Origin: Escherichia coli
GTDB taxonomy: Bacteria; Pseudomonadota; Gammaproteobacteria; Enterobacterales; Enterobacteriaceae
Assembly (NCBI RefSeq): GCF_003334385.1
Contig: NZ_QOWN01000017.1
DNA length: 64,000 bases
Strand: one strand, 5' to 3'
Part shown: positions 55,067 to 64,000 of the stretch, one piece after another
Layout: each line of letters starts with the position of its first letter
Position numbering within the stretch: position 1 is the first letter of the stretch
Translations under genes and position numbers: made by a program
The notes under the pieces: model-generated
The model's input: the letters and a program-made list of their open reading frames with translations, nothing else
What the model was told of the DNA's origin: nothing
Database searches by the model: none

Positions 55067-56011
55067 TCATTGATTCACCTCCTGCCTGTCGTCCGGCATT
55101 CGCTCACTACAGCTTATCCAACCATCCGGAGTTACCGGAACTTGTGGAATGGCTGTCTGCTCTCGAACGTCATTAGGCGCTATAGGTTCTGCTGCCAACT
55201 GACTGGCATATTTGTTAATGGTAACGATAAGCTCTTGCTCAGCCTCATCCAGACAATCACCGATACCTCGCCTGTCACCGTCAAAATCATCGAAATCGGC
55301 ACGAATCCTGGCAACCTTCAGGATTGCGGACAACACCTCACTAGGAATTGCCGGATAGTTGGTTGACGTTTCCGCGATTTCCCGAAAATTATTGGTTGAC
55401 GAATTCTTGTTTTCCCGAAAGTTTCCGGACTGAAGCATGGCGGCGCGGCAGGCGTTCCATATTTCGGCAGCAATATCGCGCTCGCTATCGGTTAATTTGT
55501 ACGTTGAAACATAGCCAGAGAGCATTTCTACGTTTTCCGGAGTTGCTTCTTCAGGCACTACCGGTGCTGGCTCACGTATTACAGGCTCGCCCATGCGTGA
55601 TTCTCCCTGCGCCTCTTTCACCATGTGGTCATTGATTTGCTCCAGTCGCCGAACGTGCTCATCAGCTTCAAGCGCTCGCCGTTTCCAGATGGACAGGTCT
55701 TCACGAGCGCCCTGATATGCGTCACCGTATTCGCCGTTAAATACTGGCGCTGGCGGGGCGATGCGTCCAAGCAACTTATTTACCTCTTTCGCCATCGCGT
55801 CATATTTATCTAAATAGCGATTAGCTTCTAAGCAGACTCGGTGCATCTGATCTGAGTTAACTCGTTTAACTGGATCTGCTTCCAATGATGCCAGTGCAAT
55901 TCGTGCCAGTTCTTCCGCTTCTTCTGCTGGCAGTACAACGTTGCTACCCGGTCCGTATGTTTCGCGCCACTGCTTGATTGTCAGCAGTCGCCCTTTGGTA
56001 ATAGTGATCAT
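55067..56011 (-). CDS. Hypothetical phage protein (314 aa), shares RIALASLEA(D/E)PV motif with the 56428..56877 product
   Basis: Strong SD AAGAGGA; paralogous N-terminal motif; C-terminal GWISCSERMPDD resembles DUF551-type phage proteins (from memory). Confidence 0.6.
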   Translation of the reverse strand: MITITKGRLLTIKQWRETYGPGSNVVLPAEEAEELARIALASLEADPVKRVNSDQMHRVCLEANRYLDKYDAMAKEVNKLLGRIAPPAPVFNGEYGDAYQGAREDLSIWKRRALEADEHVRRLEQINDHMVKEAQGESRMGEPVIREPAPVVPEEATPENVEMLSGYVSTYKLTDSERDIAAEIWNACRAAMLQSGNFRENKNSSTNNFREIAETSTNYPAIPSEVLSAILKVARIRADFDDFDGDRRGIGDCLDEAEQELIVTINKYASQLAAEPIAPNDVREQTAIPQVPVTPDGWISCSERMPDDRQEVNQ

Positions 56012-56877: not shown

Positions 56878-57083
56878 TTATTAATCCTCAAAACTTTATG
56901 CCCGGGCGCAAAAGCACGTGTTTTGTCTTTGCTTATTCGCCAGCCATCCTTGCGCGCCTCTTTTGCACAGCCAGCCCATGACGTACCGATATACTCACCG
57001 AAGTCTGGCGTTTGATATTTACCATTTGTACACTGGCAACAATCACAGTAGAGATGCATGGTGTAACTTGCGGAAATAGCCAT
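56874..57083 (-). CDS. Small Cys-rich phage protein (69 aa; CDCCQC...C, possible zinc ribbon)
   Basis: Start at internal ATG of track ORF 56874..57191 with perfect SD (AAGGAGCCTGATATG); upstream gene stop sits in the SD spacer. Confidence 0.55.
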   Translation of the reverse strand: MAISASYTMHLYCDCCQCTNGKYQTPDFGEYIGTSWAGCAKEARKDGWRISKDKTRAFAPGHKVLRINK

Positions 57084-57084
57084 A

Positions 57085-57276
57085 TCAGGCTCCTTTAGTG
57101 CGTAAGTGGTTTTTCCAGCGGTTTTGCGCCGCGCTGCGCTTATCTTTGATTCCCTCTCTGGCAATTCCAGAATATAAGTACAACACCACACGGCGATTGC
57201 TAACTCTCAACCACTGGCTGGGATAGCAACGTCTGTATACACGGGAGATAAGCATCTTTGCTTTACGGTTTTTCAT
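57085..57276 (-). CDS. Small basic phage protein (63 aa), tandem paralogue A
   Basis: N-terminus MKNRKAKMLISR...WLRVSNRRV conserved with the adjacent upstream ORF at protein level; ATGA-coupled. Confidence 0.5.
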   Translation of the reverse strand: MKNRKAKMLISRVYRRCYPSQWLRVSNRRVVLYLYSGIAREGIKDKRSAAQNRWKNHLRTKGA

Positions 57277-57455
57277 CTTACTGCGTACCCTTTCTTCCGC
57301 CTGTTCTGTGACGCGCTAGGCTTTTTGCAACAACTGTGCCCCATCACCCCGCAACACCCCGTCAACCTCACTCGTCTGTTACTAATCCTCAACCATCGCC
57401 AGACCCCAACACCGTTTCTGCGAGCTAACAGAATTTTTGCCTTACGGTTTTTCAT
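57273..57455 (-). CDS. Small basic phage protein (60 aa), tandem paralogue B
   Basis: MKNRKAKILLAR...WLRISNRRV; SD AGGAGA; start overlaps upstream stop (ATGA). Confidence 0.5.
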   Translation of the reverse strand: MKNRKAKILLARRNGVGVWRWLRISNRRVRLTGCCGVMGHSCCKKPSASQNRRKKGYAVR

Positions 57456-57628
57456 CGTTTTGTTCTCCTGCGTTTCTTTGCTGCTCGTCGTGCCGCTGCA
57501 ATACCGGTATGGCGGCGCTTTGGTGCCGGGATGATGTTGTCAGCCATCAGGACATGTGGCTTTGCAATTAGCGCAGAAGCCCAAAAACGAGTCGGGTACG
57601 GTAACAAGCCGATACATGCCACACGCAT
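57452..57628 (-). CDS. Small basic phage protein (58 aa)
   Basis: Below track threshold; SD AGGAGG 6 nt before ATG; start overlaps the Ea22-like stop (TAATG) and stop overlaps next start (ATGA). Confidence 0.5.
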   Translation of the reverse strand: MRVACIGLLPYPTRFWASALIAKPHVLMADNIIPAPKRRHTGIAAARRAAKKRRRTKR

Positions 57629-58443
57629 TACTCACCTCCTTTGATGCGAATGCCTGCGGCGCGGATTGCAGCGATGACTTCAGAAACTTTGTATGCCATT
57701 ACCGTTTGGTAATCATCGTGAAAATCTGTTCGATGAAGCATGCTGCTACGTTCCGGGAGCGATATTTCCCGAGCATCCAGTTCCTTAACGCGTTCCTCCA
57801 GTTCGTAGACCCTGCATTGTTCTCTATCATCAATCAGATATAACCCAAGACATTCGCTTTCTACCCAACCGCCAAAATCATGATCGTAACGCTCACATGA
57901 AAACTCACCGTCACCGTCCTTTGTTGGAATGGTGTAACTATCTAATGTGCCACCATATGTCGGCACATTTCCCAATGTTGGATGCTCAATCCACATGAAA
58001 AATGCACGTCCGGTTATTGGGCAAATATCTGGCCGCCATTGGTTACGAACAGCCTTGGTTTCGGATAATTCTTCAGCGTGTTGTTTTACTTCCTCAAGCT
58101 CAACTCTCAGCTTCCCTACCGTTAGCGCAATATCCTCGTTCTCCTGATCGCGGCTTTTGATGTATTGCAGGTTTCTTTCCCGTTCATCCAGCAGTGCCAG
58201 CACGGTAGCCGGGTTAGCCTCTGCTATGAATTCAGCGTTTGCATAAGCCTGAGCATCTGTTTCAACCAGGCAGTTAACGTGACATTCTGCAATTACGCCA
58301 CCGGGTTCTCCTTTCCATTTTTGACAAACAAAAACTCCTGTTAAATTGCCGTGTTGGTTAACAGATGTATGCCCTACGATGTAGCTTCCTTTAGTTGCTT
58401 TCTCTGCCTTTTCACGCAGTGCCTGATAGTCAATCTTGCTCAC
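57628..58443 (-). CDS. Ea22-like phage protein (271 aa)
   Basis: GTG start with SD AAGGAGG; contains LLDERERNLQYIKSRDQENEDIALTVGKLRVELEE and C-terminal GIRIKGGE, which I recall as characteristic of lambda Ea22. Confidence 0.65.
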   Translation of the reverse strand: MSKIDYQALREKAEKATKGSYIVGHTSVNQHGNLTGVFVCQKWKGEPGGVIAECHVNCLVETDAQAYANAEFIAEANPATVLALLDERERNLQYIKSRDQENEDIALTVGKLRVELEEVKQHAEELSETKAVRNQWRPDICPITGRAFFMWIEHPTLGNVPTYGGTLDSYTIPTKDGDGEFSCERYDHDFGGWVESECLGLYLIDDREQCRVYELEERVKELDAREISLPERSSMLHRTDFHDDYQTVMAYKVSEVIAAIRAAGIRIKGGE

Positions 58444-58744
58444 TGGCAGCCTCCTTTGCCGGGATTTCTAACTTTTGAGTGGTTGTATCAAATTCAAACA
58501 ACTTAACCACGTCATCAAACAGGACATAATCACCATCAGGATTTTCAGTCATATCTGCGCCACAATCCTGACCGCACGAGTCGCAACCATCCATATCAAG
58601 CTCGTATCGCTTCAGGTTTGCGATATTTGATAAATTCAGCGCCAGTACAGCCAGGTCATAAACCTCTTCGGCAGTGACATCGCTGTTCAGTCCCATTTCA
58701 TGGCGATATATGATTTTTTCTACTCGTTGTTTTGTGATCGTCAT
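58430..58744 (-). CDS. Hypothetical phage protein (about 104 aa)
   Basis: Track ORF 58430..58768; ATG at 58744 (MTITKQR...); alternative start at 58696 possible; acidic, Cys-containing. Confidence 0.45.
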   Translation of the reverse strand: MTITKQRVEKIIYRHEMGLNSDVTAEEVYDLAVLALNLSNIANLKRYELDMDGCDSCGQDCGADMTENPDGDYVLFDDVVKLFEFDTTTQKLEIPAKEAASEQD

Positions 58745-59015
58745 TTTTCTCTTCACTCCGATATACAAGGATTACTACACCCCCTCTGCTGATTGCGCGA
58801 GCTGGATCCCCTGGTTCCATGCCGTCAATTCCGAAGGCTTCGGAAAACGCATTCATTGCCTTCTGGCGTTCATCCTGCTTACGGCGTTTATTCCATTTTT
58901 TCAGGAACAACAGCGACAGCCACCGTCCGCTGCAGAACACGATGTAAAAATAACCAAGGAGCGCCAGGCCGACATTCAGGGCCGTTTCTATGGTTAGTTG
59001 TGAGTCAGTTGCCAT
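58698..59015 (-). CDS. Small membrane protein (105 aa; one N-terminal TM helix, then basic stretch)
   Basis: Hydrophobic segment LNVGLALLGYFYIVFCSGRWLSLLFL followed by KKWNKRRKQDERQK; 3' end overlaps next gene so true stop/start uncertain. Confidence 0.4.
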   Translation of the reverse strand: MATDSQLTIETALNVGLALLGYFYIVFCSGRWLSLLFLKKWNKRRKQDERQKAMNAFSEAFGIDGMEPGDPARAISRGGVVILVYRSEEKNDDHKTTSRKNHISP

Positions 59016-59253
59016 TTCTTACCTGTTTAAGTAACTGGTTGAACATAACACTTAGGGGATTGCTGTATCCAAACGGCAGATTGTTTACGCAGTACAGAAT
59101 CATTTTGTTTTTTTCTCCAGTTCGTACTATTAACCCATTCCACAATAACCGTGATAATTCATTACTGATAGAAGTTGCGCTTCTTCCAAGTGCGAGGGAT
59201 ATATCTTCTCTACTGCAATCTGGATTTTCCTGGATATACTCGATAACGGTCAT
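59005..59253 (-). CDS. Putative winged-helix DNA-binding protein (82 aa)
   Basis: Track ORF 59005..59295; ATG at 59253 (MTVIEYIQENPDCSREDISLALGRSATSISNELSRLLWNGLIVRTG...) resembles a wHTH. Confidence 0.45.
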   Translation of the reverse strand: MTVIEYIQENPDCSREDISLALGRSATSISNELSRLLWNGLIVRTGEKNKMILYCVNNLPFGYSNPLSVMFNQLLKQVRNGN

Positions 59254-59263
59254 GTGGTCCCTT

Positions 59264-59845
59264 TTACTTAATATCTGTTTCGGATTGCATGCCATGAGTA
59301 TTCATTTCGTTAATAATTTCATCCAGAAGGATTTCAAGCCCTTCTCGACCCATATCTGAAAGAATGAAACCTTTATCAGGGGAAGTAGTGAGCATTTTCT
59401 GATAAAGAAACAGCGCTCTTCCCATTCCTTCAGTTTCGCCGTATTTTTGAATTAAATTCCATTCAATATACTGTTGTAAGGCAAATCGAATGGGGCCGGG
59501 ATATATCGTCATAAACCCATACATCCCGTTATATACCACGGCGTGTTCAGTTGTTCCGTGTTCATTCAGGATATCAATTGTGCCGTTCTTGTCTTCTTCT
59601 TCGTTGATGAATGTCGTCACATACAACCATCGCCACTGAGCAACCTTCATCTCAACCGGAAGTTTACCCAGTAATCCTGCTTCGTCGGCTTGCGCCAGAC
59701 ACTGAAGGATACGTAAACCTCGCACATTAGGAGTATCGAATTCTCCGGCATCCAGACGACGTATGGCGTCGTGATAATCAATCGTCATACTGCCAGTTCG
59801 TATACCATTGGCTGTTGCTTCAGCCTGGAATTCATCGTATTGCAT
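59264..59845 (-). CDS. Hypothetical phage protein (193 aa)
   Basis: SD GAGGA; no recognisable motifs. Confidence 0.55.
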   Translation of the reverse strand: MQYDEFQAEATANGIRTGSMTIDYHDAIRRLDAGEFDTPNVRGLRILQCLAQADEAGLLGKLPVEMKVAQWRWLYVTTFINEEEDKNGTIDILNEHGTTEHAVVYNGMYGFMTIYPGPIRFALQQYIEWNLIQKYGETEGMGRALFLYQKMLTTSPDKGFILSDMGREGLEILLDEIINEMNTHGMQSETDIK

Positions 59846-59850
59846 GATAT

Positions 59851-60039
59851 TTATTCCTCATCTTCATCTTCATCTGCTGGTGCAATAACGTCATATCCTG
59901 CCTTTTCTGCAATAAACAGGAATGTTGAAAGAGTTCCTACAAGTTCATCGTCATGAACATGGCGAATGAATATTACTTTCCCGTTTTTGATGGTCAGCAA
60001 TATTCTGGTTTGTTCGTGTTCTGCTGTTTTCTGATGCAT
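59851..60039 (-). CDS. Small phage protein with acidic tail (62 aa; ...APADEDEDEE)
   Basis: SD GGGAGA; stop 6 nt before next start. Confidence 0.5.
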   Translation of the reverse strand: MHQKTAEHEQTRILLTIKNGKVIFIRHVHDDELVGTLSTFLFIAEKAGYDVIAPADEDEDEE

Positions 60040-60233
60040 TATTATCTCCCGTATGCTTTACGCAGAAATAAGCAGGCAATATGCATGTAATTTTCACCGT
60101 ATTGTGCAATAAGGCAGGCGGTCTTGTGTGATGCCATATTCTTTATAAAAGTCACAATAAAGCCTCCTGTGGATTAAGGTTGTAACAATCCCCGGCGATA
60201 AAACCGCAATAAACGTTCAGGGCATATTTGTTG

Positions 60234-60599
60234 TTATTGCGCTAATTCTTTTTCGGCAGCAGCTTTTGTATACTCACATGCAAAACTCAGAATTTCGCTG
60301 CCGAGTGTTTTCGTTTCGTGATTACTGGACATATGTAATACCTGTGTTGCATGCAATAAATGATAAACATTTACCGCAAATGAATCAGGCTCCAGACAAA
60401 TGCCTTCGTAATTATCTTGCTGTGAGGTTGTTTCTGTCATTGCTCCTGAAGTGCATGCGAGCCTGTTTTTGACAATTCTCTTTTCTCTAATCACTATATC
60501 GGCAACATCTATTGCCTTTACAACCTCCGGGAGAAGTTCCGGGTTTGTATAATCAAAGTCATCAACATGGAGAACAGTTATGTTTTCGAACTTTTTCAT
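60234..60599 (-). CDS. Hypothetical phage protein (121 aa); C-terminal half paralogous to the N-terminal domain of the 60728..61276 product
   Basis: SD GAGGAAG; alignment LEPDSFAVNVYHLL...KTLGSEILSFACEYTKAAA versus LELDSFALNIANLL...KELGIEVMEFIHEYALSAA. Confidence 0.55.
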   Translation of the reverse strand: MKKFENITVLHVDDFDYTNPELLPEVVKAIDVADIVIREKRIVKNRLACTSGAMTETTSQQDNYEGICLEPDSFAVNVYHLLHATQVLHMSSNHETKTLGSEILSFACEYTKAAAEKELAQ

Positions 60600-60727
60600 G
60601 GCTTCCTCAGCTGACTTATATGTTCTGCTATATAGCGAGTCTCAGAAGTGTTTTCATATTGAGACTGTTTCCACAATGATTGATAAAAATGTTCGCATGT
60701 ACCTTGAAGGGCGAAGCGGCGATTATG

Positions 60728-61276
60728 TCACCATTGGTATTGGTTCTTCCGCAGAAGAGCTTCGCGAGATAAGGGGCAAACTTGTTGAGATGCGTCATGG
60801 TGTTGCTGCTCCTCACTTTTTGGTTGCTCCGGAGGAGTAACCTCACCAGTTAACAGGCACATCGGATCGCAGCCAAGAATATTTGCCAGTGGGATAAGCA
60901 TACTGATAGTTGGTTCATACTCTCCGCTCTCCCACTGGATGATAATTTCTTCATCGAGATCGAGCAGCCTGGCGAGTTCGGCGGTTGTTAAGCCGCAGGC
61001 TTCGCGTTGGGTGCGAAGGTTAACCAGCCAGCTTTCAGGGAAGGATTGTTTTTGCTGTGCAGGAGAAGCAGCAGATAGAGCATATTCATGGATAAATTCC
61101 ATTACCTCAATGCCCAGTTCCTTTGAGCGAGCACAATCCAGAAGATGGAATGTGCGTACAGCACTTAGCAAATTTGCAATATTTAATGCAAAGGAATCAA
61201 GTTCTAAGCCCTTAAGCGTAACACAGCCGCAGTTGATAAAATTAGTTGTTTCTGGAGTTGCTTTTAGTGTCTTCAT
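60728..61276 (-). CDS. Two-domain protein: N-terminal unknown domain plus C-terminal XRE-type HTH (182 aa)
   Basis: ATG at 61276 (track ORF extends to 61306); HTH segment GLTTAELARLLDLDEEIIIQWESGEYEPT; first gene downstream of a sigma70-like promoter next to cI. Confidence 0.55.
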   Translation of the reverse strand: MKTLKATPETTNFINCGCVTLKGLELDSFALNIANLLSAVRTFHLLDCARSKELGIEVMEFIHEYALSAASPAQQKQSFPESWLVNLRTQREACGLTTAELARLLDLDEEIIIQWESGEYEPTISMLIPLANILGCDPMCLLTGEVTPPEQPKSEEQQHHDASQQVCPLSREALLRKNQYQW

Positions 61277-61329
61277 ATATCCGCCAACAATTTTAAATTG
61301 AATCAAATCAAGTTATAATTGATGGTGCG

Positions 61330-61358
61330 ATATTATGTTTTGGGAAACAGGCTGTCAA
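61330..61358 (-). promoter_or_regulatory. Sigma70-type promoter (pL-like) reading leftward, away from cI
   Basis: On minus strand: TTGACA (61358..61353), 17-bp spacer, TAATAT (61335..61330); about 45 nt upstream of the 61276 start. Confidence 0.6.
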
Positions 61359-61388
61359 GAAAAAATTGATATCGTATATTTCAGGCAG

Positions 61389-61410
61389 AAAAAAAACGGG
61401 CAAAGCCCGT
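61389..61410 (-). terminator. Rho-independent terminator just downstream of cI
   Basis: Minus strand: ACGGGC-TTT-GCCCGT followed by T8 (plus-strand A8 at 61389..61396). Confidence 0.75.
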
Positions 61411-61422
61411 TAAAATCAAAGA

Positions 61423-62112
61423 CTAACCAAATCTGTTTATGTTGAATGGTACTGATGAGATCACTTTAGACTGGATATAAAGCAGAGCTAACCCCTCTTT
61501 TTCGATGCTCCATGGTTGATAATTGGGGTTATCAGATAACACCATGATTTTGCTTCCAATTTTTTGAAGCCTTTTCACGTAGCATTCTCCATCAAAACAA
61601 AATGCATAAATACCATCGCCATCAAAATAAGTTACTGTCTTATCAAGAAAAAGAAGGTCGCCAGGTGAGATTGTGGGAGCCATACTGTCTCCTCTGGCGT
61701 TACCTATTTCTATATTTTTGAATGCCCGATTTCCAACAAGACGTCGGGCATATTCAGGATCAAGTTCTATTGAGCGCACTACATCTATCAAGTCACCACG
61801 GACATGAGTTCCATCACCGCAACTAAACTCAACATCAAGGACATTAAATACGACGCTATCTGTTCTTGTCTGGTGTTTCTCTTGCGAGGAAAAGGTTGGT
61901 GAGGAGTCTTCACCTAAGAACCAGGATTGTGGATAACCGCTAATCTCTGATAAATGCGCGAGCTTATCACTCCGTGGAAATGTTTTTCCTGTTGTCCAGT
62001 ACTGCACTGATTGCGCACTCACACCTAACTTGCGGGCCAGTTGAGCCTGAGTCCATCCTTTTGCTTTCAGCATCGCGGCTATTCGATTTTCCGTGTTTTT
62101 GACGTTCTTCAT
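61423..62112 (-). CDS. cI: CI-type prophage repressor (N-terminal HTH plus C-terminal S24 LexA-like autopeptidase), 229 aa
   Basis: ATG at 62112 (MKNVKNTENRIAAMLKAKGWTQAQLARKLGVSAQSVQYW); S24 motifs GDSMAPT (Ser) and YVKRL (Lys); divergent from Cro-like gene. Confidence 0.85.
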   Translation of the reverse strand: MKNVKNTENRIAAMLKAKGWTQAQLARKLGVSAQSVQYWTTGKTFPRSDKLAHLSEISGYPQSWFLGEDSSPTFSSQEKHQTRTDSVVFNVLDVEFSCGDGTHVRGDLIDVVRSIELDPEYARRLVGNRAFKNIEIGNARGDSMAPTISPGDLLFLDKTVTYFDGDGIYAFCFDGECYVKRLQKIGSKIMVLSDNPNYQPWSIEKEGLALLYIQSKVISSVPFNINRFG

Positions 62113-62245
62113 GACCAAATCCTGTGGGTTTCTTTACAAGGATAAATCTTTACTTGATTTTAGTGTATTCGATCCTTTTGTAACTTGCATGTTAATTTAA
62201 ACTTGATGTATTCTTGATTTATAAAGTTAATATTGGTGTTTTGTT

Positions 62246-62536
62246 ATGGAAGGAAATGATTACGACAAACTTCGTGCATTAATTGCGCAAAATGCCATAG
62301 CGCGAAATCTTGGTGTGACGCCGCAAGCGGTGAATCAGTGGTTTTCAAAAAGCACAATTCCTGCTCGTTTCGTTTTACGAGTATGTGAAGTAGTTGCATG
62401 GAAGGTTACGCCTCATGGCTTAAGGCCAGATCTTTATCCTCACCCTGAAGATGGAATTCCTAACTTGTTACGCAAAAGCCTAAATCCAAGTTCACCACAC
62501 AGAGCGGATGGAATACACGCAGGAGATAAACAATGA
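62246..62536 (+). CDS. cro: Cro-like HTH regulator (YdaS/DUF1019-like), 96 aa
   Basis: HTH NLGVTPQAVNQW; HGLRPDLYP motif; divergent to cI across a 133-bp AT-rich intergenic region. Confidence 0.7.
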   Translation: MEGNDYDKLRALIAQNAIARNLGVTPQAVNQWFSKSTIPARFVLRVCEVVAWKVTPHGLRPDLYPHPEDGIPNLLRKSLNPSSPHRADGIHAGDKQ

Positions 62537-63240
62537 ACACCGCAATTTTTAACGGCAAAGCATCCATGACCAGCGTTGAGATCGCAGAGCTGGTGGGAAG
62601 CCGACCAGATAGTGTTAAGAGAACTATTGAAACACTGGCTAAAAAGGGAATCATCCAATTTCCACAGACTGTGGAAATTGAGAATAAACAATCACTTGGG
62701 CCTCGCCGATTTTCTAGCGCGTATGTATTCGAAGGTGAACGAGGTAAGCGCGACAGCATCATTGTCGTCGCACAGCTCTGTCCTGAATTCACAGCTCGCC
62801 TGGTAGATCGCTGGCGCGAACTGGAAGAACAGATCCGTAAGCCAATGAGCGAAATCGAAATGGTTGCCGCGATGGCTCTTGAAGCCGTTCGCCAACAGAA
62901 ACGGATCACTCAGGTGGAAGAAAAAGTCAGCCACGTTGCTGAAACAGTCGAGCAAATTAAAAAGGGCACTATTCGTGAGGGCTATGCCGGATATCGCCAA
63001 CTGAAAGCAAAAACCGGTTTGTCAGATGATAAATGCCGCAATCTGGTGAACGCCTATCAAATTCCTACAGACACACATGAGTTCATGACGCCGGACGGAT
63101 TGTTGTCACGTCGCGCAATTGTTGCTGTGGAACCGTTTATGGCTGCTTTTTATCGGGTTATGGAGGAAGCAGAACCGCGAGGGACTCGCTGGTATCACCC
63201 GAAAATGGGGTTATTTCAGGTTATTGGTTGGCAGCGATGA
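62533..63240 (+). CDS. Putative phage regulatory / antirepressor-like protein (235 aa)
   Basis: Start overlaps cro stop (ATGA); N-terminus MTSVEIAELVGSRPDSVKRTIETLAKKG resembles Rha/Bro-N-type DNA-binding N-domains. Confidence 0.5.
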   Translation: MNTAIFNGKASMTSVEIAELVGSRPDSVKRTIETLAKKGIIQFPQTVEIENKQSLGPRRFSSAYVFEGERGKRDSIIVVAQLCPEFTARLVDRWRELEEQIRKPMSEIEMVAAMALEAVRQQKRITQVEEKVSHVAETVEQIKKGTIREGYAGYRQLKAKTGLSDDKCRNLVNAYQIPTDTHEFMTPDGLLSRRAIVAVEPFMAAFYRVMEEAEPRGTRWYHPKMGLFQVIGWQR

Positions 63241-63648
63241 AAAAAAGCCGGGAGTAACCCGGCTCACTCAACATCAATAACGGGGAGCTGTTTCGCATAA
63301 AACGGCTCCGAAACATCCAAGAACAGTTCTAAAGATATCAGCAGCTATATGATCATTTCAAGACCAAATATTGATTCTGCAATTCCGGGACGTTACACTG
63401 CTCAGGCACCTTATAAAGCGGGTGCCGGGGGTCGCAGCCCGGAATTGTCAACGGCGATATATGACGCGCCAGCGTCTTTTTTATCGTCCGCGCTCACGCA
63501 CGCCAGAATTATGGTGGGCTGGGCAGGGGAGCCGAAAGGCTCGCCGGTCTCCGTTGACGCCGGTACTGCGAACCCTGTTCAGTCTGCCACCAGTGAGTTT
63601 CGCAGCTCCGGTGGTGGAAGTTTTCCACAGTCAACGGAGGCTGCCATC

Positions 63649-64000
63649 ATGGCTACGATCCCAACCCTCACTCAACCTGAAATTGCCATCGTTGATGGTC
63701 AGGCTGTTACTTCATCCCTGGCTGTTGCCAACTTCTTCTCCAAACGTCATGACGATGTACTGAAAAAGATCCGCACGCTTGAATGCTCTGCATCATTCAC
63801 TTCCCGCAATTTTTCGGTGAGTGATTACACCGATTGCACAGGCCGCAAACTACCTTGCTATCAAATAACCCGCGACGGCTTTGCGTTTCTTGCTATGGGT
63901 TTCACGGGTAAACGTGCTGCCCAGTTCAAAGAGGCATACATCAATGCCTTTAACCAGATGGAGAAACAGCTTTCAAATCCCTCTGTACTGAGCGACGTTG
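63649..64000 (+). CDS. Rha-family phage regulatory protein, 5' portion (partial, runs off window)
   Basis: SD AACGGAGG; MATIPTLTQPEIAIVDGQAVTSSLAVANFFSKRHDDVLKKIRTL...RDGFAFLAMGFTGKRAAQFKEAYI matches the Rha-family pattern. Confidence 0.7.
   Translation, partial: MATIPTLTQPEIAIVDGQAVTSSLAVANFFSKRHDDVLKKIRTLECSASFTSRNFSVSDYTDCTGRKLPCYQITRDGFAFLAMGFTGKRAAQFKEAYINAFNQMEKQLSNPSVLSDV

What the first reader, a model, noticed from the sequence alone, without database searches (positions are those of the whole stretch)
60042..60155. Unlisted 37-aa ORF with a consensus Shine-Dalgarno in the gap between two prophage genes
Minus-strand GTG at 60155 is preceded by AGGAGG with 7-nt spacing; the ORF (VTFIKNMASHKTACLIAQYGENYMHIACLFLRKAYGR) ends with TAA two nt before the start of the acidic-tail gene. 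The track missed it because of the 60-aa cut-off. On the opposite strand, track ORF 60580..60840 also occupies the gap 5' of it; neither is proven.
Basis: seen in the sequence. Interest (0 to 1): 0.3.

Follow-up and report, generated by a model that had tools for sequence, protein, structure and literature searches.

The report
Conserved 37-codon prophage early gene
The 37-codon reading frame is a genuine, strongly conserved small-protein gene found in the early operon of many temperate phages of enteric bacteria; standard pipelines often skip it, and its function is unknown.

Summary

The frame is intact at the same site in every divergent relative examined, apart from one IS-interrupted copy in the loci and four frameshifted database variants. 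The start is ATG in most; GTG is a variant of this lineage. Length differences are whole codons (32-41 aa). Only this frame of six stays open in 25/25 lineages. Synonymous sites are near saturation while amino-acid change is low (omega about 0.06-0.3; median 0.10 in an independent 80-locus sample).

The product is a basic two-helix hairpin (AlphaFold pLDDT 87) with consensus MTFIKDKxAYKTAxLFAxxG(xx)YxxIAxLYLRKAYGR. The family is small (23 clusters at 50% identity) but common (at least 504 IMG/VR contigs). It is absent from Pfam, NCBIfam, PHROGs, PADLOC and PDB, is not called by PGAP, but is deposited as "hypothetical protein" in several records. It is not lambda Kil or CIII.

Most likely it is an early-expressed peptide that binds a larger protein; the target is unknown. 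In passing: a covarying 4-bp hairpin lies in its leader (60206..60193), and ORF 60580..60840(+) also looks coding.

The parts
60042..60155 (-). Small protein gene: GTG start, 37 codons, TAA stop. It encodes a basic two-helix hairpin peptide.
   Evidence: Sequence. Annotated as a CDS in PV340570, LC567819, LR597645 and OM284015. The frame is conserved in 25/25 lineages while the other five frames are not. Omega is 0.06-0.3, with a median of 0.10 in an independent 80-locus sample. AF2 gives pLDDT 87 with helices 7-18 and 21-34.
60163..60168 (-). Shine-Dalgarno sequence AGGAGG, 7 nt upstream of the GTG start.
   Evidence: AGGAGG is depleted in the window (5 copies against 15.7 expected), and all 4 minus-strand copies precede start codons. 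An SD-like purine run sits at the same place in divergent relatives; GAGG is present in 74/80 loci of the 35-aa type.
60176..60216 (-). Conserved leader element: an A/U-rich run, a 4-bp GC stem (60206..60203 pairing with 60196..60193), the 6-nt loop TTTATC, then GGGGATT ... CAACCTT. It ends 20 nt before the start codon.
   Evidence: RNAalifold predicts the helix independently. 44/44 cells are paired and 3/4 pairs show compensatory changes. Covariance model R1 finds the element in untrained lineages. In the pooled set of 40 distinct sequences 99.4 % of cells are paired and covariation is 0.43 against 0.18 for shuffles. There is a single copy in the window and no Rfam match.
60045..60050 (-). 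GGGAGA, the last two sense codons (Gly-Arg) of the small gene, which double as the SD of the downstream gene, 5 nt before its ATG.
   Evidence: Sequence. The same stop-then-ATG junction (0-4 nt apart) is kept with two unrelated downstream gene families.
59851..60039 (-). Downstream gene: a 62-aa protein with an acidic DE-repeat tail (phrog_340, function unknown), whose start abuts the small gene's stop.
   Evidence: No Pfam, NCBIfam or PADLOC family.
60234..60599 (-). Upstream gene (phiP27 L08 type; phrog_5451 for the long form, phrog_4587 for the short form). PGAP calls only the short form starting at 60440.
   Evidence: The N-terminal extension 60441..60599 shows 0 synonymous and 8 non-synonymous differences.

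Best explanation
60042..60155 (-) is a real, translated gene of the prophage's repressor-side early-left operon, the one that runs from the immunity region towards xis/int. It encodes a 37-aa basic peptide that folds as a single helix-turn-helix hairpin, with small residues (Ala) spaced so that the two helices pack tightly and with several exposed aromatic residues. It has its own strong ribosome-binding site. Its last codons carry the ribosome-binding site of the next gene, whose ATG follows the stop by 2 nt, so the two are probably translated in sequence.

Shown: conservation of the frame, start, SD and junction; purifying selection on the amino-acid sequence; the confident hairpin model; the independence of the gene from any particular neighbour.

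Inferred, about 50 %: like the other very small proteins of lambdoid early-left operons (Kil, CIII, Ral), the peptide acts after induction or infection by binding a larger host or phage protein and modulating it. The target is unknown. It is too hydrophobic to be stable alone, and a linked-dimer model gave no support for self-association.

Inferred, about 50 %: ribosomes that terminate at its stop contribute to initiation at the next gene.

The confidence given (0.85) is for the core claim, a genuine gene for a functional small protein. The two inferred steps are each about 0.5.
For: Coordinates and SD are confirmed.

The ORF is deposited as a CDS in independent phage records and in many E. 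coli, Shigella, Salmonella, Enterobacter and Klebsiella entries.

tblastn and ORF extraction give 27 distinct versions with the same start position, ATG in most, conserved MTFIK... and ...L[YF]LRKAYGR ends, and lengths that differ by whole codons.

Nei-Gojobori analysis gives pS 0.5-1.0 against pN 0.11-0.34, with omega 0.06-0.3.

An independent 80-locus sample is 80/80 intact. Its 46 DNA versions encode 25 proteins, variable columns by codon position are 12/11/32 (p = 5e-4), pS is 0.41 against pN 0.058, median omega is 0.10, and the pattern inverts in shifted frames.

Only this frame is open in 25/25 lineages.

An exhaustive HMM search of 1.84 billion representatives finds 23 clusters, most of them standalone proteins of 32-41 aa; the rest are the frameshifted, fused, IS-split or repeat entries listed in the full report.

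The gene sits in the same operon slot in all contexts examined.

It is kept upstream of at least three unrelated gene families, and mosaic breakpoints flank it.

AF2 on the family alignment gives pLDDT 87.3 with helices 7-18 and 21-34.

All 23 members analysed are net basic, +1 to +7.

The region as RNA is no more stable than shuffled sequence, z = -0.14.
Against: There is no direct evidence of translation or of the peptide (no Ribo-seq, proteomics or tagging), and no paper holds its sequence motifs.

PGAP does not call it in RefSeq E. coli genomes.

No family database or solved structure gives a functional handle.

Part of the C-terminal conservation (Gly-Arg = GGGAGA) could reflect the overlapping SD of the next gene and not the peptide itself.

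Four frameshifted or truncated variants, one fusion and one IS-split entry exist in databases (P0073, P0078, P0083, P0084; P0071; P0076), as expected for decaying prophages or sequencing errors.

The binding-modulator mechanism is argued by analogy only. The linked-dimer AF2 test was negative (pTM 0.34) and no partner was identified.
Confidence: 0.85

Rival explanations
1. The ORF is only a translated leader (uORF). What matters is that ribosomes traverse it and deliver themselves to the start of the next gene; the peptide itself has no function.
For: The stop lies 2 nt before the next ATG and the last codons are the next gene's SD. This junction is kept in most lineages.
Against: The amino-acid sequence is under strong purifying selection along its whole length. 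The gene is kept in front of three unrelated downstream families, and in some lineages it lies 36-72 nt from the next gene, where termination-reinitiation coupling is unlikely. The family gives a confident folded model.
Confidence: 0.05
2. The peptide is a cis-acting nascent arrest or sensor peptide. At 35-40 residues it would still fill the ribosomal exit tunnel at the stop codon, and its conserved C-terminus (LYLRKAYGR-stop) would stall termination to control exposure of the next gene's start.
For: The length is about that of the exit tunnel. The strongest conservation is in the last 9 residues, next to the stop and the downstream SD.
Against: The N-terminal MTFIKDK is equally conserved although it would lie at or beyond the tunnel exit. 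The Ala/Gly periodicity and the AF2 model indicate a folded hairpin. There is no Pro or other known arrest motif, and the downstream gene differs between lineages.
Confidence: 0.03
3. The ORF is a distant member or functional equivalent of lambda Kil, the ~47-aa early-left peptide that blocks cell division through FtsZ.
For: Same operon type, similar size, and a predicted two-helix hairpin. There is a local resemblance, TFIGDEKMFREA against TFIKDKAAYKTA.
Against: hhalign probability is only 6-8 % over 12 columns, even profile against profile. No member matches Pfam PF06301 even at E <= 10. The C-terminal stretch that looked similar is absent from natural short Kil variants. The Kil family itself is very narrow, with the listed hits at or above 79 % identity.
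Confidence: 0.07
4. The region is non-coding. The conservation belongs to an RNA or DNA element, and the open frame is incidental.
For: PGAP leaves the region unannotated. A conserved RNA hairpin does exist just upstream.
Against: The third-position excess and omega of about 0.1 are specific to this frame and invert in shifted frames. All indels are whole codons and only this frame stays open. There is no stable fold over the ORF and no Rfam match. The hairpin lies outside the ORF and can be separated from it by another gene.
Confidence: 0.02

Closest known systems
Lambda Kil (Pfam PF06301, host cell division inhibitory peptide)
   Same: A very small peptide (47 aa against 37 aa) encoded in the repressor-side early-left operon of a lambdoid phage. 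Kil is described as a helix-loop-helix (from my knowledge of the literature) and this peptide is predicted to be a two-helix hairpin. There is a short local sequence resemblance.
   Different: No significant sequence or profile similarity. This family is basic and ends in a conserved LRKAYGR. It is much more diverse and spread over several genera, whereas Kil hits are all at or above 79 % identical. No evidence of toxicity or an FtsZ link.
Lambda CIII (Pfam PF02061, FtsH inhibitor) and other small early-left proteins such as Ral
   Same: The same kind of gene: short, early, accessory and host-directed, sitting among mostly uncharacterised early-left genes. PMC8022706 states that for a majority of early-left operon genes functions are not known, and that known ones include kil, ral and cIII.
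   Different: No similarity to CIII and no Pfam hit. There is no evidence for any of those specific activities.
A single tetratricopeptide (TPR)-like helix-turn-helix unit
   Same: About 34-37 residues, two antiparallel helices, with small residues at helix-packing positions (A9/A13/A17 and A27/A34), a Gly at the turn, and aromatic or aliphatic residues at TPR-like spacings. This is my reading of alignment A2. The only PDB sequence hits are designed TPR proteins.
   Different: Those hits are not significant (E = 0.25-0.41). No Pfam TPR family matches even at E <= 10, and Foldseek finds nothing significant. TPRs work as arrays, not as a lone repeat.
Small-protein genes missed by annotation pipelines (smORFs found by ribosome profiling, e.g. 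bioRxiv 10.1101/511675)
   Same: A peptide under 50 aa that conventional annotation pipelines tend to leave out; that abstract says such pipelines usually exclude small ORFs. It is detectable by conservation plus an SD.
   Different: This one lies in a prophage absent from the usual model strains. No profiling data for it were found, and the paper search for its motifs was empty.

Membership tests
Genuine protein-coding gene | The reading frame, start position and stop are conserved in divergent relatives, and indels are whole codons. | tested here: met
   open in 25/25 lineages, intact in 80/80 of an independent sample, lengths 32-41 aa.
Genuine protein-coding gene | Purifying selection on the encoded amino acids (dN/dS well below 1, third-position excess). 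| tested here: met
   omega 0.06-0.3; codon positions 12/11/32, median omega 0.10, and the pattern inverts in shifted frames.
Genuine protein-coding gene | A ribosome-binding site at the proper distance from the start. | tested here: met
   AGGAGG plus 7 nt. The motif is rare in the window and is used at gene starts. An SD-like run is present in relatives.
Genuine protein-coding gene | Ribosome occupancy or a detectable peptide. | not testable with these tools
   No expression data are available, and no paper holds the peptide motifs.
Lambda Kil (PF06301) | Sequence or profile match to the Kil family. | tested here: not met
   The Pfam scan of 11 members gives no hit at E <= 10. hhalign probability is 6.1 % and 7.6 % profile against profile.
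Lambda Kil (PF06301) | Blocks cell division through FtsZ (filamentation on expression). | not testable with these tools
   Requires an experiment.
Lambda CIII (PF02061) | Sequence match, including the central amphipathic helix. | tested here: not met
   hhalign probability 0.2 %; no Pfam hit.
TPR repeat | Match to TPR profile HMMs or to TPR structures. | tested here: not met
   No Pfam hit at E <= 10. PDB designed-TPR hits have E = 0.25-0.41. The best Foldseek PDB match has E = 6.
N-utilisation site (boxA/boxB nut), considered for the leader hairpin | A second copy (nutR) in the rightward operon, a boxA upstream, and a purine-rich GNRA-like loop. | tested here: not met
   Only one copy in the 64-kb window, which includes cro and about 1.5 kb to its right. 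No conserved boxA-like sequence in alignment A3. The loop is pyrimidine/A-rich, TTNANY. Whether an N-like protein is present was not tested.
Intrinsic terminator, considered for the leader hairpin | A GC-rich stem followed by a U-run. | tested here: not met
   The terminator scan does not report it. The stem has only 4 bp and is followed by GGGGAUU.
Any Rfam family, for the gap 60042..60233 | Covariance-model match. | tested here: not met
   The Rfam scan at E <= 1 over 57000-64000 finds only IsrK and C4 at 63406-63594 plus two chance-level hits elsewhere.

The most novel reading that the evidence does not exclude
The peptide defines a new family of lambdoid 'host-takeover' micro-proteins: a lone, basic, TPR-like helical hairpin that becomes ordered on binding a conserved enterobacterial (or phage) protein early after induction. 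It is delivered as a self-contained mosaic cassette together with its covarying leader hairpin, which would act as a context-insulating translation-initiation element or as the binding site of a regulator. A bolder version, that the basic peptide itself binds the leader hairpin RNA, is not excluded but is weakened because the two can be separated by another gene or occur apart.
Probability: 0.3. Interest if true: 0.5.

Novelty: new member of a known kind. Interest (0 to 1): 0.33.

Why it matters
Small phage proteins are a rich source of specific inhibitors of host machinery, yet they fall below the size thresholds of annotation pipelines and family databases. This gene shows the gap clearly. 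It occurs in hundreds of sequenced enterobacterial prophages, including Shiga-toxin phages and prophages of ST131-type clinical E. coli. It is under purifying selection as strong as many housekeeping genes. Yet it is missing from RefSeq annotation and from Pfam, NCBIfam and PHROGs. Adding it (with a family model built from the alignment made here) would correct many annotations, and the peptide is short enough to synthesise and test directly. The covarying leader hairpin may turn out to be a reusable translation-initiation or regulatory cassette at a mosaic joint of lambdoid genomes. By itself, however, the finding is an ordinary kind of thing, an uncharacterised small early gene, and not a new type of system.

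Tried and rejected
1. PHROGs, NCBIfam, PADLOC, Pfam, PDB sequence search and Foldseek against PDB gave no significant match for the peptide.

I used the search of protein representatives with a profile instead.

3. The 90 % cluster that groups the peptide with 119-aa 'Fels-1 prophage protein' entries is an artefact. The sequences are unrelated, and the 119-aa protein is an alternative downstream gene.

4. K-12 Rac ydaF and ydaG, which occupy a comparable slot, are unrelated.

5. Lambda Kil and CIII homology is rejected.

6. A homodimeric four-helix bundle is not supported. The linked-dimer AF2 model was poor, pTM 0.34 and pLDDT 58. This is a crude test, so weak negative evidence.

7. A structured RNA over the ORF is rejected, z = -0.14.

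8. The leader hairpin is not a nut/boxB site (single copy, no boxA), not an intrinsic terminator and not in Rfam.

9. The literature search for the peptide motifs and the FIG identifier returned nothing. A search for 'boundary/linker sequences' in lambdoid early-left operons found no description of the hairpin.

10. The first family-anchored locus search returned only near-identical E. coli copies. Re-anchoring on a 35-aa member gave the divergent sample.

11. Pfam on the downstream 62-aa protein gave nothing.

Full report
WHAT IS THERE. On the minus strand the sequence reads ...ACAGGAGGCTTTATTGTGACT...: AGGAGG at 60168..60163, a 7-nt spacer, then GTG at 60155. Thirty-seven sense codons follow (VTFIKNMASHKTACLIAQYGENYMHIACLFLRKAYGR), then TAA at 60044..60042, the two bases TA, and the ATG at 60039 of the 62-aa acidic-tail gene 59851..60039. 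A 37-codon ORF alone means little, because one search lists dozens of similar ORFs in all frames. The SD is more telling. AGGAGG occurs 5 times in the window against about 16 expected, and all four minus-strand copies lie 5-9 nt before a start codon in this operon.

CONTEXT. The window end holds the immunity region of an E. coli lambdoid, phiP27-like prophage. It contains a cI-type repressor (61423..62118, minus), cro (62246..62536, plus) and roi (62533..63240, plus). A terminator-like hairpin follows cI (61411..61395) and a good promoter-like site lies at 61358..61330. After that comes a minus-strand string of small genes running towards xis/int. The region is 99.8 % identical to Escherichia phage PhiR49_2 and about 90-93 % identical to phiP27 and to many Stx1a/Stx2a-converting phages. 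It is found in 319 of 5,426 complete E. coli genomes.

ANNOTATION STATUS. The 114-nt ORF is already a deposited CDS ('hypothetical protein') in PhiR49_2 (XSB43068.1, note FIG00644067), Stx1a phages (BCI49047.1), phage Fraca (VUF53612.1) and EKP1 (UKL15111.1). The same is true of many E. coli, Shigella, Salmonella and Enterobacter records. NCBI's PGAP does not call it in RefSeq E. coli genomes and leaves a gap of about 195 nt. It is also unannotated in phiP27, Fels-1, ENT39118 and AsXd-1.

IS IT CODING? tblastn with the peptide finds full-length, in-frame relatives down to about 50 % identity in Fels-1, Fraca, SaltyDalty, ENT39118, AsXd-1 and a Klebsiella phage. Extraction of every copy from the fetched loci gave 27 distinct versions. 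All share the same start position. The start is ATG in most lineages, so the GTG here is a lineage variant; one locus encodes the identical protein with ATG. The N-terminus MTFIK and the C-terminus L[YF]LRKAYG[RVW] are conserved, and the lengths 35/37/38 aa differ by whole codons. An SD-like purine run precedes the start, and the stop abuts the next ATG.

Variable columns by codon position are 28/18/36, with minimum changes 41/25/67. Nei-Gojobori analysis gives pS 0.5-1.0 (near saturation) against pN 0.11-0.34, with omega 0.06-0.3 wherever it can be computed. For example, window type against phiP27 type shows 17 synonymous differences on 23 sites and 12 non-synonymous on 85 sites. Of the six frames across the ORF, only this one is open in all 25 lineages; the others are open in 0, 0, 5, 1 and 0. 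The RNA of 60010..60240 folds no better than shuffles, z = -0.14, and Rfam has nothing there.

I then took an independent sample anchored on the peptide family itself and ranked towards a divergent 35-aa member. All 80 loci are intact and all start with ATG. The 46 DNA versions encode only 25 proteins. GAGG is present in 74/80, and the next ATG lies 0-3 nt after the stop in all 80. Variable columns are 12/11/32 (p = 5e-4), mean pS is 0.41 against pN 0.058, and median omega is 0.10. The pattern reverses when the same DNA is read in shifted frames.

Disrupted copies exist but are rare and secondary. One locus (L027) has a 1,331-bp insertion with a 5-bp target duplication and two transposase ORFs; I identify it as IS2 from my own knowledge of that element's size and ends. 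Four frameshifted or truncated database variants (P0073, P0078, P0083, P0084), one fusion (P0071) and the IS-split entry (P0076) also exist. I conclude, at about 0.9 or higher, that this is a real protein-coding gene. Translation itself was not observable with these tools.

THE FAMILY. A profile search that read all 1.84 billion cluster representatives found 23 clusters at 50 % identity, most of them standalone proteins of 32-41 aa. Named hosts are Escherichia, Shigella, Salmonella, Enterobacter and Klebsiella, plus a Cronobacter phage; two phage records are attributed to Aeromonas and Elizabethkingia. The consensus is MTFIKDKxAYKTAxLFAxxG(xx)YxxIAxLYLRKAYGR. All 23 members analysed are net basic, +1 to +7. 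AlphaFold2 on the family alignment gives a confident helix-turn-helix hairpin, mean pLDDT 87.3, with helices 7-18 and 21-34. There is no match in Pfam, NCBIfam, PHROGs, PADLOC, PDB sequences or Foldseek/PDB. The spacing of small and aromatic residues resembles one TPR unit, and the only PDB hits are designed TPRs, but at E = 0.25-0.41. That is a resemblance, not membership.

GENOMIC LOGIC. In every context examined the gene sits in the repressor-side operon, a few genes downstream of the repressor or HTH genes and upstream of genes leading to xis/int. Its immediate neighbours vary. The downstream gene belongs to at least three unrelated families: the acidic-tail phrog_340 type found here, a 64-78-aa phrog_8959 type, and a 116-119-aa phrog_1737 type. 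All three have unknown function. The upstream gene may be the L08 type, a stand-alone S24-peptidase-like protein, or others. In E. coli genomes, megablast breakpoints fall at window 60238, 60211 or 60199 on one side and at 60042, 60039 or 60017 on the other. One genome has the same leader and ORF followed by a different gene. The leader plus the small ORF is therefore a mosaic module in its own right.

The stop-2 nt-ATG junction, with the final Gly-Arg codons (GGGAGA) serving as the next gene's SD, is kept with two of the unrelated downstream families. That suggests sequential or coupled translation. Because the peptide sequence is itself constrained, and because some lineages have 36-72-nt gaps, a pure 'leader ORF' role is unlikely.

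MECHANISM. What is shown: a conserved, selected, SD-equipped gene for a small basic helical hairpin. What is inferred: it acts by binding a larger protein, as the other very small early-left products do. PMC8022706 lists kil, ral and cIII as known functions in an operon where most genes are uncharacterised.

I tested the most tempting specific analogy, lambda Kil (47 aa). There is a 12-residue local resemblance (TFIGDEKMFREA against TFIKDKAAYKTA). However, hhalign gives 6-8 % probability, even profile against profile, and no member hits PF06301. CIII is unrelated. Rac ydaF and ydaG are unrelated. A linked-dimer AF2 model was poor, pTM 0.34, so self-association is not supported by that crude test. 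The target remains unknown.

THE LEADER HAIRPIN (noticed in passing, partly followed). In the 78-nt spacer upstream of the ORF lies a 4-bp GC stem with a 6-nt loop, followed by GGGGATT...CAACCTT. The stem-loop is at window 60206..60193 and the whole element at 60216..60176, on the minus strand. Other lineages have different but complementary stems: CGGU/GCCG, CGGC/GCCG, UGCC/GGCA, CACC/GGUG, CGCC/GGCG, CGAC/GUCG. RNAalifold predicts exactly this helix. In that alignment 44/44 cells pair, 3 of 4 pairs show two-sided changes, and the covariation score is 0.67 against 0.30 for shuffles (0/500), with slid registers at or below 0.17.

A covariance model built from 10 sequences finds the element in untrained Klebsiella prophages at 39.6 bits. 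There a gene of 147-171 codons lies between the element and the small ORF. It also hits 52 of 73 loci of the 35-aa type, always on the sense strand at one position just upstream of the S24-peptidase-like gene that precedes the small ORF. A weak hit (18 bits) falls in the ydaE-racC spacer of K-12 Rac. Pooled, 40 distinct sequences give 99.4 % paired cells and covariation 0.43 against 0.18 (0/500); this alignment was fitted to the model, so it leans towards the structure.

The G.U pair in the window lineage favours an RNA structure on the sense strand over a DNA palindrome. The element ends 11-20 nt before a start codon in the four loci I measured (the window, L088, L095 and Rac). It has one copy in the window, no U-run, no boxA and no Rfam match. 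It is therefore not a nut site or a terminator. My best guess, which is inference only, is a self-contained translation-initiation or processing element at a mosaic joint.

ORF 60580..60840 (+) matches phrog_6104 at E = 4e-49 and corresponds to phiP27 L09. In 41 loci its substitutions fall 17/11/34 by codon position. The same changes in the overlapping tail of the minus-strand HTH ORF (60728..60840) are 5 synonymous and 39 non-synonymous, including stop codons. The plus-strand ORF therefore looks coding, and the last ~37 codons of the 192-aa HTH ORF do not look conserved as coding. Most of these differences come from one 87 %-identical locus, so this is provisional.

VERDICT. This is a correct observation and a correct interpretation. 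It is a real small gene of an undescribed but common family, of a familiar kind (a small early accessory protein of a temperate phage), with unknown function. Interest is modest, raised a little by the strength of the constraint, by its absence from RefSeq and all family databases, and by the covarying leader hairpin.

Noticed in passing
window 60176..60216 (-); stem 60206..60203 pairing with 60196..60193: A conserved leader element upstream of the small ORF: a 4-bp GC stem with a 6-nt TTNANY loop, then GGGGATT...CAACCTT. The stems differ between lineages but stay complementary. A covariance model finds the element in untrained lineages, sometimes with another gene between it and the small ORF, and it ended 11-20 nt before a start codon in the four loci measured. 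It is not in Rfam, is not a terminator and is not nut-like. E. coli mosaic breakpoints fall at it.
   Followed up: partly
window 60580..60840 (+), overlapping 60728..60840 of the minus-strand ORF 60728..61306: The plus-strand 86-aa ORF (phrog_6104, phiP27 L09 type) shows a third-position excess (17/11/34). The same substitutions are 5 synonymous and 39 non-synonymous, with stop codons, in the overlapping tail of the HTH ORF. The plus ORF therefore looks real and the HTH gene probably ends earlier in relatives. This rests mostly on one 87 %-identical locus.
   Followed up: partly
window 60441..60599 (-): The long N-terminal extension of the L08-like gene (121-aa form) shows 0 synonymous and 8 non-synonymous differences among relatives. 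PGAP calls only the 68-aa form starting at 60440. The true start is uncertain.
   Followed up: partly
window 63406..63482 (+) and 63507..63594 (+): Rfam matches above gathering score to IsrK (58.7 bits) and to C4 antisense RNA (78.8 bits), side by side to the right of cro/roi. From my own knowledge this pair is associated with phage anti-repressor control.
   Followed up: no
window 61395..61411 (-) and 61330..61358 (-): A terminator-like hairpin with a T-run lies directly after the cI-type repressor gene, followed by a 10/12 sigma-70-like promoter (TTGACA-17-TAATAT). This suggests that the operon containing the small ORF has its own promoter and is not simply read through from cI.
   Followed up: no
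window 59851..59880 (-) and relatives L002, L038, L051: The acidic tail of the downstream gene varies in length between otherwise near-identical copies (...ADEDEE...ADEDEDEE...ADEDEDEDEDEE; 60, 62 and 66 aa), which looks like slippage in a GAT/GAA repeat.
   Followed up: no
locus L027 (IMGVR_UViG_2627853868_000001): The small ORF is split by a 1,331-bp insertion with a 5-bp target duplication, ends TGGATTTGCCCC.../TAGACTGGCCCC... and two transposase ORFs (121 and 263 aa). The IS2 identification is from my own knowledge. It is the only disrupted copy among about 100 loci in the first sample.
   Followed up: yes
protein clusters (P0031 with P0032, P0034, P0035): The 90 %-identity cluster that holds the window's 37-aa protein also holds unrelated 119-aa 'Fels-1 prophage protein' sequences (phrog_1737). 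This is a clustering artefact, and the 119-aa protein is the gene that follows the small ORF in some genomes.
   Followed up: yes
locus L091 1781..1821 (-) = E. coli K-12 MG1655 Rac prophage, spacer between ydaE and racC: A weak match (18.1 bits, E about 0.005-0.04) of the leader-hairpin model, on the sense strand, ending 16 nt before the racC start: stem UGCC/GGCA, then GGUAUUCGCUCAACCUU. If real, the element could be studied in K-12.
   Followed up: no
window, whole 64 kb: The hexamer AGGAGG is strongly depleted (5 copies against 15.7 +/- 3.9 expected). Four of the five copies are minus-strand sites in the prophage early-left operon, at 55083, 57640, 58455 and 60168, each followed by a start codon.
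   Followed up: partly
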